DNA of 64,000 bases, from the NCBI GenBank assembly GCA_012295275.1, contig CM022672.1, positions 23,622,001 to 23,686,000 on the forward strand. The letters are read 5' to 3'. This document shows positions 46,634 to 59,900 of the stretch, piece by piece; position 1 is the first letter of the stretch, and every line of letters begins with the position of its first letter. Source of the DNA: Chrysomallon squamiferum (Eukaryota > Animalia > Mollusca). The notes beneath the pieces are model-generated. The model had not been told where the DNA came from and did not search any database. It was given only the letters and a program-made list of their open reading frames with translations. A program made the position numbers and the translations under genes.

Positions 46634-48367
46634 TTAAAGCAGGTCACTGTTAATAGAGACAGATGTTTCATCTGTGATTCCTTTTCTAGCCAGCTGTTCT
46701 CTCACTCTTTTCAGGTAATCTGGATCAGGATACCCATTGCTAAAACAAAAATAGCATAAAAACAATAACAGGAATTAATAAATATTTAATTCACAGAAAT
46801 TCTCACCTACCTGCACCAGACAAAAACAGTCTGACATTCAGACAAAATCCTGAAGGAGAAACGTTTTGGACCCATGAACAAAATACAAAATACAGTAGTT
46901 CAAACTGTAGATTAGGGTCCCTGTCTTAGTTTTGAATGAAGATAAAGATTCATAGAAATAAATTTTCTGATATCATTTTGACTTTATAAAATTACTCCAT
47001 CATATCTAGAACTATGTGCTATACTTAAAATATAAACTTTATCTTATTAAACAGAGATAAATGAAATAATTTTATTTTCATATAAAGAAATTTATCTCAG
47101 ATGAGTTACAAAAAAAAATTAAACTTACTTTTCTGGACCTCCCCATGCATTTGTTTTATGTTCAATATCACTCCAGTCTATAGAGTTATCTGCCCCAATG
47201 ATGAAAGTAAGACCTCTGTCAAAAGCAATCTTCAACAATTTGTTGACTATCCGACCTTCCTCGTTATCTGGCAAATAAGCTGTCTTTCTTGTAGAATAAT
47301 AGAACTTTCCTGGATTGGGATGTCCTTCCTGGAGATGAAAACACCAATTCTGTTAGTATAAAATCATTATTAAATTTAATAATATGACTAAAGATAACAT
47401 CTAGTGTAAATTATAATAATGAGCCACGTTAACTAATAAAATTAATATAGTATTTCAAAAAACAAAAATAACTTAAAGATATTAAATTACTGGGATTAAT
47501 CAATAAATATTTTTTGACATTTGATGTAACTAATTCACTTGAATTGTTCATTTAAATAAATAACTGGCATCAAATATTTTGATTACACATTTTGCAGATC
47601 AGATAGGAGTCAATAATAGTTTTTAAATATTTGAAAAAGAAGTAATTTAGAAACAATAAAAACAAAAAATCTAAATGTAGCCATAATTTTTTAATAAAGG
47701 AAAGTTGTGTACTGACAAAACATATATATGCTTGGATATGTATTATTATTATTTTCTTCAGTCTTCCTCACTTAATAAAAACTCTAGCTTACATTGTGAT
47801 ATTTAGTTGATGTAAATAGTTTCTGCAGATTACTAAATAATTGTAATTTGTAGTGTTCTGATTAATGAAAATTAAACTATAGTGAATTGTATATAGGATA
47901 TTTAAATCTTACCAACTGTCTGCCACCAGTAAATGAATAATTAATGACTATTGTTTGATCATGAGGATATCCTTCCAGATAGAATCCATAAATACTGAAG
48001 GACATTTGTCCCTTTGGCATATTTCCCCAAACTGGTTTGTTTACTGAGGAACAAACTGGACAGACAGATGGAAATTTATTTCTGCAGGTTTGACATAACA
48101 GATGTTTGCATTTCAGAAACACTGGAAAGGAAGAGTCTTGTTGCTGGCAGGATGAACAGACATTTTTGTCTTCTCTGGATTCTGGTTTAGATAAGGCATT
48201 TGATAAATGCAATTTTTTAAATTGTTCATAATTAACTTCCATCATCTGAACATGATCTTCATTCTTATCAACAATTTGAACTTGTTTGAGAAATAGATTT
48301 GATTCTTTAGCAGCAAATTCCTGAACTGCTTCAAAGATTGTTTTGGTGTAATCATTTATAGAGACAT
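46634..48367 (-). CDS. Intact C3HC4 RING + Deltex C-terminal domain exons (DTX3L-like E3 ligase module)
   Basis: RING CSSC-x12-CKHLLCQTC-x7-CPVC followed by GNMPKGQM..LEGYP..TIVINYSFTGGRQL|EGHPNPGK..TAYLPDNEEGR..LLKIAFDRGLTFIIG..WSDIEHKT..GGPE|NGYPDPDYLKRVREQLARKGI. The three exons join in frame to TAA at 46634-46636. Confidence 0.9.
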
Positions 48368-49185
48368 CTAAAAAAAAAAAAAAAAAAGAAAAGAAGACAC
48401 ATAAATATATAATAATAAGAAGAAAAAGAAGAAGAAAAAGCAGAAATAATGGAAGTGAAATAAATAAATGTGAGACATGTATATTATATTATGTAAAAAA
48501 TCACTTAAAGATATGTAGGATGTGCTACATTTAATTCTTGCTAACATTTTTATAAACAAGAGCATTTTAAATAATTAATCTATCATTGTGCTTTAACCAG
48601 GAGGATATAGATCAATCATGATTTCTTTCGCTGGTGTATTTCTTTATATCAGAAACATGTTGGTAAATTTAGTTGACACAGAACGTTTCAGGATATTTAA
48701 AATACTTCATTAAATGTATTCTTCTAAACAAAATTTTACTCATTTGATAGATAATAACAAATAACATTTTCTAGTCATTACATCCAATTTAAATATCTAA
48801 CAGACTAACTGACTAACATAACATACCTTTTGGGTCATCAACACAGGAAAAGCAACAGATGAAAGTTCCTGGGAATTGGCAAAAGCAAAGATTTTACTAA
48901 TAATCTCTTTAAATTTAGCAATTTCTTTGAGAATATTTTGCAAGGATACCACCACATGTATGACTGTTTTTTGAAGCTTTCCTCCAGTGGTTTGGAAAAT
49001 ATATCCAATGGAGAACTGATTAACTGAATATGCCTTCAAAGTTTTCTGTATTCTTCTCCAGCAGCTTCAGAGATATTGTTGGGCACACTATGTTTTTCTG
49101 ATAGATCTGTATCTTGCCAGCAGACTATGGCTTGAGCATTTGAATGTAAAATGTTATCACAATATATTAATATGTCAGGTACTTT
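48245..49185 (-). CDS. Divergent macrodomain 3, split by a 1-nt frameshift at ~49040
   Basis: DILIYCDNILHSNAQAIVCWQD..ISEAAGEEY[fs]..GYIFQTTGGKLQKTVIHVVV..ELSSVAFPVL..IFEAVQEF..LKQVQIV. Confidence 0.7.
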
Positions 49186-56940: not shown

Positions 56941-59900
56941 CTATTAAAGAAAATAAAAAAAATTTAAAAATTATTTTTCCACTAAGGTTATGTAAAGTGG
57001 CATGAATTAAGGACAAATGTTTAAAAATACAGTCATCTTGAAACCAAAATAATATTTATAATAAATTGACTTTTAATGTAAACAAACAATTATTCAAGAC
57101 CACTTCACAATCATCATTCTCATTTTGTGAAACTGAGCTGTTTTCTGGTGATGTGATTGTTATTTTAGCTTTCAGTTTCTTCAGCTGCATATGTAATTAA
57201 ACCAACAATCTCATATCCAGTATCTTTATCACTAGCAATGTTTTTAATAAGTACATATTCTCTGTCATACTCTCTTCAATTTTATCGAAAATGCTTTTTT
57301 CAATCACTATCTTCTTTTTCTCAAAATTTGTAAAATATGTTTAATTTCTTACAAAATATTAGGCAGAGATTTAAAACTTCCAACAAGAAATCATTTTTTT
57401 TTTTTTTGTATTTGGAATAACCAAAATTTTTCTTTTTCAAATTTATTTTGAATATTTGTTGCTCAAGGAGTTTTGTTACAGCTGTGAGGACATTTTCTCG
57501 TGGTGTTCCAAAATGACTTCTTCAACCACTTTCTCTGCTGGTTTTACTTTGTCACCTTCAACATGCAAGACATTTTCTTCTTTAAAATCAAATGCATGAA
57601 TGATATTTAGCTTCATTAATTTTTCACGTACGAGGTTTTGTGCCTCATTACTACCTTTTAAGAAGTCAAATCTCAATGATGAAATTTTCACAGATATAAC
57701 CAGTTTCTCTAATCTTTTGCACACCTCTGCACATATGTCTTTCTTTCAAAAAATTATGAATTCAACTTCTGACTCACATCTAGAAACTGGATCAATCGTT
57801 ACAATGTTTTCATTAAACTCCTTTGAAATGTGCAAAATTTCATGTATTAAGTCTCTGCTAAAGAAAACACATTTTTCTTGCAAACAGTCAGATCTTTGTC
57901 TTAAGAATTCCAATGCCTCAGAAACTGCATCATTTAGTCCAACAAACACTAGTATGTTTTCTGAATTATTTAGTATACCTAACAACTGTATTCCATACTT
58001 TTTTTCAAGTTCTCCTGATATCTGGTCAAGTTCATGCAGTTTCCTAATTGAGTATATCCACCCTTTGTTCAATTTTCTCCCCCCTGGTCTCCCTTTGAGG
58101 CTTCAATGTGTAAAATAAATTCAGGTCAATCTCAAAAATGTGCTCATTGTCGCGTCATTTAGAGATTTTTTAACATAGTCCTGGGCTGTAACATTGGACT
58201 TCAAAAATGCCAGTTTTGTAATTGAAATAGATAATCTGATGAATATGTTTTCCAATTTGTATCAAACAGTTTTGCTGATATCATTTATAACAATAATTAA
58301 CTCTTGTTTCACAGGTAGCACGTTTTTTTTAATGACATCATGTCGTGATCATACTGATCAGATATTTGCTGAATTTCATAAAAATTCTAGCAGCATTGCA
58401 TAAAGTAACCGTTCTATCTTTATAACTGTTTAACATTTTATGGATCTTTTCTAATACAGATGATATTATACTTGTGGTACCAACAATTAATAAATCTTCA
58501 TTATTACAAGAAAGCAATATCTTTTCATCTTGCAATTTATTCTCTCAGCTGCTTTCTCAATTCCAAGGAGTTTTGTAATAGGCTGTGTACATATGTTTTC
58601 ACAGAATTCAGAGATGATTTCATCAAGTAAAGTCTTTGCTTTCTGCACTTCTCTGTCTTCATTGTGAACTATAACTCCTCTTGCAAAATGAAACTTGTAA
58701 TGGATTTGTTTCTCCTTGAAGTTTTCATCTATTACATCAGTAAACTCCTGATAATATTTCAGTTTTAAAGGAGAAAGTGGAATTGTGATAAATAAATTCT
58801 CCATTTTTGTTACAAACAGTAGCACATATGTCTCTAAAACCAACAATAACAAAACCAGTTTTTGACTCATTGGTAAATGGTTTGATAATTAAAGTATGGT
58901 CATGATAAGTGGCAGGAATGTCCTGGAATTCATCAGACTTTCTTTTCTTCATATGAATCCAAATATTTATTAATTTTTTTCATAACATCATGTGTTCCAA
59001 TAAACAGTAATGAGTTTTTGTCATCTTTTGGAATAACTAATAACTTCTCTTCTCCAAATTTTTCTTCAATTCTTTCAGCTATTTTTGACAGACCAAGAAC
59101 TTTTTTTAAGGGTTTTTCAGATATATTCTCTTCATGTTGTTTAATTATTTCATCTAGCATCTACTCTGATTTCTCTGCACTCTTGCATTCTGTAAACATT
59201 ATAATTCCTTTTTCTGGTTCAAACTGACATTTTGTTTGCTAACTTTCAAGTCTTTTCAAAATGTAATTCAGTGCAGTGTCCTTGGATTTCAAAAATCTAA
59301 CTTTCAGAGCTGAAAGTTTCACCAGTTTACTTTCCTGCTTTTCTTTCTAATGATCTAAACTGTGCCTCTCTGATTTGCAATCCAGATAGCTTCCTATAAA
59401 TTATATTCACACTTCTTACCATAATCAAAATACTAGTTAAAAAAATTCTACTTTTATTTAAGTAGAGGGTGCTAACTGCAACATTATAAAAAGTCCTCGC
59501 TTTCCATGGCAATACTTACAACTGTCTTCTAGCACTAACTGTTGATAGAAATGTGATTACTTAAATGTTCTACAGTAAATAATTTCTGCTGTAACAAATG
59601 CTGAAACAATTTTATTTATTTTATTTTATTTTATTTTATTCATTTAATTTTAACAATTGGAACCTATTAAAATAAACAATATAATACCACGCTGATGAAC
59701 TCCATCTGAATGGGCTGCCATCTTTAAACAATCCGAATCAAACAGTAGTCGCCATTGCAGTTACATTCTACAAAAATAAATAAATGATCATTTCATATCG
59801 TCACCCCTTCCATCGAACGATAATGACTGTATGGTGCATTTTATTTTTTGAATATAAAAACGTTCTTTTCAAATGTAAATTGAGAGACAGAGAGTTAAAT

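What the first reader, a model, noticed from the sequence alone, without database searches (positions are those of the whole stretch)
46634..59721. Single-chain macrodomain-RING-Deltex gene: a PARP9/14 + DTX3L 'Rosetta stone' fusion
Seen: collinear minus-strand exons encode KH-like helical repeats, macro1, a divergent macro2, another KH-like stretch, macro3, a C3HC4 RING and a DTC domain. Macro3 and the RING share exon 48367-47913, so the macro-RING-DTC linkage does not depend on my splicing model. No PARP catalytic or WWE domain is visible. Known: in mammals the ADP-ribose-reading macrodomains of PARP9 and the RING-DTC of DTX3L are on separate interferon-induced proteins that heterodimerise, while other Deltex proteins use WWE readers. 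Inference: this invertebrate lineage built an ADP-ribose-directed ubiquitin ligase as one polypeptide, probably antiviral.
Basis: partly seen in the sequence, partly recalled or inferred. Interest (0 to 1): 0.85.

Follow-up and report, generated by a model that had tools for sequence, protein, structure and literature searches.

The report
Broken copy of invertebrate macro-Deltex ligase
This gene, broken as assembled, joins macro (ADP-ribose-binding type) domains to a Deltex ubiquitin-ligase end, a layout that is common in molluscs, amphioxus, sea squirts and acorn worms and is already noted in a 2026 preprint; its one oddity is that the residues Deltex enzymes use to attach ubiquitin to ADP-ribose are replaced, so its transcribed relatives likely read ADP-ribose rather than ubiquitylate it.

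Summary
The domains are real: three macrodomains, a C3HC4 RING and a DTC, collinear on the minus strand, with no PARP or WWE hit. The fusion is neither new nor lineage-specific. Macro plus DTC occurs in 14 of 80 scanned homologues and one more, 12 of them named, in 11 mollusc, amphioxus, tunicate and hemichordate species. bioRxiv 10.64898/2026.04.23.720386 already states that DTX3L lost its macrodomain when PARP9 arose. First, the copy is broken: about 14-16 stops and frameshifts in the 5' exon, plus three downstream lesions. RNA contigs come from relatives 86-97% alike. Second, the chemistry is disarmed: DTC positions H707/Y719/E733 read E/N/Q, the pocket loop is six residues short, and only macro1 keeps a reader-type pocket. 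ISRE-like elements upstream suggest IRF induction. Best reading: a pseudogene of a transcribed, fast-evolving macro-DTX3L family whose members likely read ADP-ribose but do not ubiquitylate it. The scan's earlier notes hold no report of this architecture.

The parts
61257..61272 (+). Second ISRE-like triple GAAA element, part of a thrice-repeated promoter block; a decayed third copy lies at 61739-61748
60122..60137 (+). Proximal ISRE-like element (three GAAA half-sites at 6-base spacing), about 400 bases upstream of the ATG; IRF binding inferred
   Evidence: 2 matches in the window, 0.04 expected, 0 of 100 shuffles reach 2
59688..59721 (-). Likely first coding exon (ATG, 34 nt, ends in phase 1)
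   Evidence: joins in frame to exon 56940; no RNA check
57112..59330 (-). Decayed large exon of KH-like alpha/beta repeats, with 4-6 stops and 8-12 frameshifts; boundaries approximate
   Evidence: coding score 8.4 per kb against 55-73 for intact exons and -68 to -126 for intron and flank
56879..56940 (-). Exon with the first strand of macro1
55655..55873 (-). Macro1, N-terminal half (reader type, closest to PARP14 macro2/3)
   Evidence: RNA contig over 55655-55870
54403..54636 (-). Macro1, C-terminal half with a kept loop-2 motif (F-P-T-L-G-T-G)
   Evidence: RNA contig
53990..54030 (-). 41-nt linker exon with one lesion (a stop in the incoming frame, out of phase with the next exon)
   Evidence: inferred exon, no RNA joint seen
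53010..53123 (-). Macro2, first part (degenerate)
   Evidence: no Pfam hit alone
51446..51622 (-). Macro2, middle part (degenerate)
   Evidence: (E 0.018)
50930..51115 (-). Macro2, end
50617..50738 (-). Linker exon
   Evidence: RNA loose end at 50617
48827..50115 (-). Long exon: KH-like domain(s), disordered linker, most of macro3 (degenerate); 1-base frameshift near 49041 and a 1-base phase mismatch at its 3' end
   Evidence: extra base at 49041 in all laid X1 contig depth and part of X8
47913..48367 (-). Last helix and strand of macro3, C3HC4 RING (48158-48048), start of DTC
   Evidence: joint to the next exon in RNA runs X8 and X9
47129..47328 (-). DTC core; Glu at the H707-equivalent codon (47163-47161); pocket loop of 6 residues instead of 12
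46634..46739 (-). DTC end and stop codon; Asn at the Y719-equivalent (46738-46736), Gln at the E733-equivalent (46696-46694)

Best explanation
This locus is a likely pseudogene copy of an invertebrate macrodomain-bearing DTX3L (KH-like repeats, macrodomains, RING, DTC), from a transcribed, likely multi-copy family whose working members are predicted to be IRF-induced ADP-ribose readers that have lost the Deltex chemistry for ubiquitylating ADP-ribose. Shown: the domain order, the lesions in this assembly, the wide spread of the architecture, transcription of relatives 86-97% alike, and the replaced residues. Inferred: an IRF binds the ISRE-like elements and induces the gene; macro1 binds mono-ADP-ribosylated targets, probably written by a PARP14-like enzyme, without removing the mark; KH-like repeats add nucleic-acid binding or self-assembly; macro2 and macro3 no longer bind or cleave ADP-ribose; the RING still folds but the DTC cannot activate the ADP-ribose hydroxyl, so the output would be at most ordinary lysine ubiquitylation. 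The single-chain layout is likely the inherited pre-vertebrate state, later split into PARP9 plus DTX3L.
For: Architecture: Macro plus DTC in 12 of 50 and 2 of 30 scanned homologues, and in P0151; species; scallop P0111 is collinear with the window, macro1 46% identical over 71 aa, E 4e-14; preprint section 5. Broken copy: 14-16 lesions in 2.2 kb, of which 4-6 are in-frame stops, not indels. The assembly nearby looks accurate: six listed X1 DNA contigs match with 0 differences and 0 gaps over 3,122 bases between 50206 and 56300. Family: the listed exonic RNA contig pieces are 86-97% alike, and two different contigs overlap one place in each RNA run. Disarmed DTC: alignments to DTX3L and DTX2; Glu at the His column in 0 of 170 homologous DTC copies and Asn at the aromatic column in 0 of 115; all 12 macro-bearing homologues that matched the motif keep His, an aromatic or His, and Glu or Asp; the matching E608Q change impairs DTX2 (PMC7615817); these residues are needed for ADP-ribose but not lysine ubiquitylation (PMC10810221). 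The loop deletion and the degenerate macro3 are shared by RNA contigs that align without gaps over 47149-47327 and 48828-49045, so they are not just decay of this copy. Immune link; oyster IRFs activate ISRE reporters (PMC5557890); Aplysia DTX3L sits in an antiviral co-expression module (PMC8195618).
Against: The 5' exon was not covered by any laid run, so its lesions are unchecked against independent sequence. The frameshift at 49041 is absent from all laid X1 depth (217.7 of 217.7) and part of X8 (5.45 of 13.5), though not from X2 (0 of 20.8), so it may be an error or a polymorphism. The three downstream lesions sit at or beside short homopolymer runs, and exon 1 can skip the decayed exon in frame. 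Whether the transcribed relatives share the three DTC substitutions could not be read: only 40 of 663 difference rows were shown, and one RNA contig stops aligning at 47149 with 87 letters left over. No full-length relative was found. Both RNA runs come from one study and are contigs. The RING has Ser before the second Cys where 99 of 102 homologues have I, V, L or F, so even lysine ubiquitylation is doubtful. The tree did not place the gene.
Confidence: 0.55

Rival explanations
1. The copy is alive as a shortened protein. Exon 1 skips the decayed KH exon and joins macro1 in frame, giving macro1-macro2-KH-macro3-RING-DTC of roughly 1,100 residues; the three downstream 1-base lesions are assembly errors or rare alleles.
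For: The skip is in frame with no stop through macro1. Lesions are about 15 in 2.2 kb of the 5' exon against 3 in about 3.3 kb downstream. The 49041 frameshift is absent in X1, and an X8 RNA contig stops aligning at the last A before the out-of-phase donor at 48827, as an extra base there would cause.
Against: X2 shows no extra base at 49041 (0 of 20.8). None of the listed exonic RNA pieces matches the window above 97%. No joint from exon 1 was tested. The 41-nt exon lesion was not seen corrected among the 12 of 52 indel rows shown.
Confidence: 0.25
2. All lesions are assembly errors in a multi-copy region and the gene is intact at full length, about 1,850 residues.
For: One lesion is contradicted by an independent DNA run. 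Multi-copy regions polish badly (own knowledge).
Against: 4-6 lesions are in-frame stop codons. The adjacent sequence matches X1 contigs with 0 gaps over 3,122 bases. Tested exons of neighbouring genes (ENTH, ankyrin, WD40) are open and hit Pfam.
Confidence: 0.07
3. One reading: a lineage-specific new fusion that works as an ADP-ribose-directed ubiquitin ligase like the PARP9:DTX3L pair.
For: Domains and order are real; promoter elements fit immunity; the tree leaves more than one origin of the macro label open (3 changes, 1 forced).
Against: Same architecture in 11 named species of four animal groups; in print as the older state; DTC catalytic residues replaced.
Confidence: 0.05
4. Two separate genes: a macro1/macro2 gene upstream and a macro3-RING-DTC gene downstream.
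For: RNA contigs are short; the only listed RNA joint is 47327-47912, so no molecule links macro1 to the DTC.
Against: Splice phases are continuous from 53123 to 50115 with no stop; the upstream part has no stop or effector domain of its own; scallop P0111 holds all parts in one chain in the same order.
Confidence: 0.05

Closest known systems
Macrodomain-bearing DTX3L orthologues of animals without PARP9 (bioRxiv 10.64898/2026.04.23.720386, section 5 and Fig. 1d legend; e.g. Branchiostoma lanceolatum CAH1268233.1, Ylistrum balloti XP_060080184.1, Solemya velum KAL5022596.1)
   Same: Macro domain(s) upstream of RING-DTC in one chain. The Ylistrum protein has three Pfam macros, and its reader-type macro is the best match to macro1.
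   Different: The homologues keep the DTC His/aromatic/Glu set (12 of 12 with the motif, one with Asp), and most keep a hydrolase-type macro with N-A-A-N and a Gly-rich loop. The window has neither, has a shorter DTC loop and RING, and is broken.
Human PARP9:DTX3L heterodimer
   Same: Macro reader plus RING-DTC; the DTC core aligns to DTX3L (3pg6) at E 1.9e-17; IRF-type promoter elements (the human pair has STAT and IRF sites).
   Different: One chain instead of two; no PARP domain and no head-to-head PARP gene within the 4.3 kb upstream; H707, Y719 and E733 equivalents replaced; no hydrolase macro matching PARP9 macro1.
PARP14 (KH, three macros, WWE, ART; present in molluscs per PMC10221186)
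   Same: KH-like front end and three macros; macro1 halves match PARP14 macro constructs best (E 1.4e-06 and 8e-14).
   Different: Ends in RING-DTC, not WWE-ART; the macros are not three in tandem; none has the Macrodomain1 hydrolase signature.

Membership tests
Deltex (DTX) E3 ligases | C-terminal DTC domain | tested here: met
   PF18102 E 5.8e-20, 72.3 bits against cut-off 25; PDB hits DTX3L, DTX2, DTX1
Deltex (DTX) E3 ligases | RING directly before the DTC with eight zinc ligands | tested here: met
   C3HC4 pattern complete at 48158-48048 in the same exon as the DTC start; Pfam RING models stay below cut-off
Deltex (DTX) E3 ligases, ADP-ribose-ubiquitylating | Catalytic His and Glu and pocket aromatic (DTX3L H707, E733, Y719) | tested here: not met
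   Glu, Gln and Asn at these positions; residues defined. Met by homology of fold, not by chemistry, so not filed as an active ADP-ribose ubiquitylase
Deltex (DTX) E3 ligases | E2-binding surface of the RING (hydrophobic residue before the second Cys; role recalled) | tested here: inconclusive
   Ser, against I/V/L/F in 99 of 102 RINGs; spacing 7 against 10-11 in 95 of 102; activity not testable here
Macrodomain-bearing DTX3L of invertebrates | One or more macrodomains upstream of RING-DTC in one gene | tested here: met
   collinear with P0111
Macrodomain-bearing DTX3L of invertebrates | Orthology by tree to DTX3L | tested here: inconclusive
   Quick tree of 53 rows, 3 left out: window on a long branch (1.88), in no well-supported set; nearest rows are two macro-bearing proteins
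Macrodomain-bearing DTX3L of invertebrates | N-terminal RRM and KH domains | tested here: inconclusive
   KH_PARP14_2 E 0.007; Foldseek KH rows at E 0.08 or worse; no RRM hit in the broken exon
Macrodomain-bearing DTX3L of invertebrates | One intact transcript spanning macro to DTC | not testable with these tools
   Only short RNA contigs were available
MacroD-type ADP-ribosylhydrolase macrodomains | Asn/Ser and Gly flanking loop 1, hydrophobic plus aromatic in loop 2 (PMC10221186) | tested here: not met
   Macro1 lacks the Gly-rich loop 1 and aligns with reader-type domains; macro2 and macro3 lack both loop motifs
Macro-PARPs (PARP9/14/15) | PARP catalytic domain | tested here: not met
   No PARP or WWE hit in the scanned frames

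The most novel reading that the evidence does not exclude
This animal has expanded a fast-evolving, IRF-induced family of macro-Deltex pseudo-enzymes that dropped both ADP-ribose-reacting centres together (the hydrolase macro and the DTC His-Glu pair) and kept one reader macro and the zinc-bound RING. They would act as decoys or shields for ADP-ribosylated immune targets against viral macrodomains, a natural separation-of-function version of the PARP9:DTX3L axis. I found no paper describing such a form.
Probability: 0.25. Interest if true: 0.55.

Novelty: new variant of a known kind. Interest (0 to 1): 0.3.

Why it matters
The fusion itself adds little. It is one more example of an older DTX3L layout that is in public annotations and in a 2026 preprint, and intact examples (scallop, Solemya, amphioxus) are better material for testing how a macrodomain aims Deltex ubiquitylation in one chain. 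What remains of interest is the joint loss of ADP-ribose chemistry: papers call the DTC His and Glu strictly conserved among DTX proteins, and here both are replaced in a family that is still transcribed. If the transcribed relatives share this, they are a natural test of whether Deltex immune function needs ubiquitin-ADP-ribose at all.

Tried and rejected
No genome was held for this window, so copy number was not counted. Three word-indexed protein searches found no close relative: 0 of 77 candidates, 1 of 6 (Branchiostoma floridae), 0 of 509; weak evidence of absence. The protein atlas gave no answer. Single-sequence folds were poor (mean pLDDT 42.5 and 47.9); only residues 1-67 of the long exon folded well, with a strand-helix order like type I KH, and the fold searches were not decisive. 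The tree was a quick one, unresolved, with P0111, P0117 and P0034 left out because a motif used for cutting was missing; it supports no claim on single or repeated origin. The first motif census failed through my own off-by-one errors and was redone; several exon ends were also off and were corrected. Differences between the window and the four runs were 29 amino-acid-changing and 6 silent among 35 exonic rows taken from the 40 shown of 663, against 79% expected if all changes are equally likely. That fits both neutral decay and diversifying selection, so I draw no conclusion from it. A head-to-head PARP gene was sought upstream and not found within the window. A possible in-frame 39-nt cassette between the last two exons (about 46849-46811) has no support and was not used. 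Paper searches without any relevant hit; PMC10789625 passages say nothing on the fusion. Fig. 1d and the supplements of the preprint could not be seen; they may show three-macro forms or catalytic variants.
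Full report
Setting. The window is AT-rich animal DNA (GC 0.22-0.32 per 2 kb) with spliced neighbours: exons hitting ENTH, ankyrin and WD40 models. No whole genome is held. The best named protein matches are molluscan, so a mollusc is likely; this is inference.

Observation. Pfam on 18 open stretches confirms Macro on the two main macro1 exons (E 1.2e-07, 7.6e-07) and on the second half of macro3 (E 1.3e-05), a weak macro2 (E 0.018), DTC (E 5.8e-20) and a sub-threshold RING. 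The RING has all eight C3HC4 ligands at 48158-48048. A profile from nine homologous macros scores the spliced macro1, macro3 and macro2 at 63.5, 42.9 and 13.0 bits. Frame scans with stops read as X found no PARP or WWE. The corrected exon set is in the parts list. RNA contigs of two runs from one study cover exon bins far more than most intron bins and show the joint 47327-47912; no listed contig links macro1 to the DTC. Exon 48367-47913 holds only the tail of macro3, so the macro-RING link depends in part on the splice model. KH identity of the repeats is plausible but weakly supported.

The copy is broken. A frameshift-aware codon model finds 4-6 stops and 8-12 shifts in the 5' exon under three penalty settings. 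That exon still scores as decayed coding sequence: 8.4 per kb, against 55-73 for intact exons and -68 and -126 for an intron and the 3' flank. Three more lesions lie downstream: the 41-nt exon at 54030-53990, a 1-base shift near 49041 and a 1-base phase mismatch at 48827. For real decay: in-frame stops are not typical indel errors (own knowledge), and six listed X1 DNA contigs match the window with no difference or gap over 3,122 bases. Against: the extra base at 49041 is in all laid X1 depth and part of X8, though not X2; the downstream lesions sit at or beside homopolymer runs; and exon 1 joins exon 56940 in frame if the decayed exon is skipped. The 5' exon was not covered by laid runs, so this stays open. 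The listed exonic RNA pieces are 86-97% alike to the window, and two different contigs overlap one place in each run, so the transcripts come from other alleles or, more likely at this distance, paralogues.

The architecture is old and widespread. A search with the DTC exon gave 1,309 proteins at E 0.001 or better, of which 150 were listed. I scanned 80 of the 150, chosen for length of 350 residues or more, so the share is not a random estimate: 12 of 50 and 2 of 30 carry Macro plus DTC. Twelve of these 15 have names, in 11 species: Ylistrum, Mizuhopecten, Solemya, Nucella, Gigantopelta, Haliotis, Argonauta, two Branchiostoma, Ciona and Glandiceps. The two named vertebrate proteins (Chanos, Notamacropus) have no Macro hit. 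Ylistrum XP_060080184.1 has three Pfam macros, RING and DTC, and aligns in order to macro1, macro3 and DTC of the window. [quoted passage not shown] PMC10221186 (passages, section 14) finds PARP9 only in jawed vertebrates and PARP14 in molluscs and corals. So the single chain is likely the inherited state and the vertebrate pair the derived one. My own tree did not resolve this.

The chemistry is disarmed. In the DTX3L structure sequence the only His-Glu pair 26 residues apart in this region is the first His of I-H-H-K-T and the second Glu of K-E-E-L, which matches H707 and E733 in PMC10810221 and PMC11460948 (passages). The window has Glu, Asn and Gln at H707, Y719 and E733. Among 151 homologues, Glu never occurs at the His column (0 of 170 DTC copies; 34 have other residues, mostly Pro or Ser), Asn never at the aromatic column (0 of 115) and Gln at the Glu column in 4 of 115. 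All 12 of 13 tested macro-bearing homologues that matched the motif keep the set, one with Asp; the thirteenth, P0111, shows His, Phe and Glu in its printed tail. PMC7615817 (passages) reports that even E608Q impairs DTX2, and PMC10810221 that these residues are needed for ADP-ribose but not lysine ubiquitylation. The loop before the His is 6 residues against 12 in 157 of 160 copies. An RNA contig aligns across it without a gap, so a transcribed relative shares the deletion. Most homologues carry a hydrolase-type macro; the window's macro3 has lost both loop motifs, and RNA contigs 86-89% alike over its second half cannot restore them there. Macro2 is degenerate too. Macro1 keeps the fold and loop 2 and resembles PARP14 reader macros and macroH2A, but has Glu where Asp usually binds adenine (role recalled). 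The RING lacks the usual hydrophobic residue before the second Cys and is three to four residues short. Whether the three point changes are shared by transcribed relatives could not be read.

Regulation. Two triple-GAAA elements lie at 60122-60137 and 61257-61272, the only two in the window against 0.04 expected. They belong to a block repeated three times. That this pattern is the ISRE consensus is recalled. Oyster IRFs activate ISRE reporters (PMC5557890, passages), and an Aplysia DTX3L orthologue is co-expressed with RIG-I, IRF1 and ZNFX1 orthologues (PMC8195618, passages). An antiviral role is therefore likely but untested.

Mechanism and verdict. Working relatives are predicted to be induced by an IRF, to bind ADP-ribosylated targets through macro1 without erasing the mark, and to add at most lysine-linked ubiquitin, not the ubiquitin-ADP-ribose ester. 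The window's copy is likely dead (0.55) or alive only as an exon-skipping short form (0.25). It is filed as a variant of macrodomain-bearing DTX3L, not as an active ADP-ribose ubiquitylase, since that defining feature was tested and not met. Nine paper searches found the architecture in one preprint and no account of a catalytically disarmed form. The scan's notes hold no earlier report of it; one unchecked note describes a rotifer gene with a PARP14-like front and a TIR end (e1-2593264), a parallel case of end-domain exchange that I did not test. Interest 0.3.

Noticed in passing
window 60110-60170, 61245-61305, 61727-61787: The promoter block with the ISRE-like element is present three times at falling identity (mean column identity 81%), which suggests local duplication of the promoter.
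   Followed up: partly
window about 53307-53367: A short high-copy repeat in the intron after the 41-nt exon: summed contig depth 57,243 in X1 for the bin, with many loose ends; probably a small mobile element fragment.
   Followed up: no
window about 45300-46420: The 3' flank of the gene holds two or three diverged tandem copies of a block of several hundred bases (seen by eye).
   Followed up: no
window 23966-30045 (-), 9440-10657 (-), 5427-5702 (+), 38911-39327 (-): Neighbours: an ENTH-domain (epsin/CLINT1-like) gene, an ankyrin-repeat gene, a WD40 gene, and a small membrane protein exon without a Pfam hit at E 0.01.
   Followed up: partly
proteins P0002, P0007, P0010-P0014, P0017-P0020, P0024 and others: A group of unnamed proteins with two or three DTC domains in tandem and few or no other domains besides RING, in which the catalytic His is often Pro and the Glu often Ser or Ala; a possible undescribed Deltex-like subfamily.
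   Followed up: no
proteins P0038, P0063, P0099: B-box-containing, TRIM-like proteins that end in a DTC, two of them with two RINGs; P0099 is from the mussel Potamilus streckersoni.
   Followed up: no
protein P0111 (Ylistrum balloti XP_060080184.1): A custom profile finds four macro-like domains, one of hydrolase type and one of reader type, with an intact DTC site; a better subject than the window for testing a single-chain reader-eraser-ligase.
   Followed up: partly
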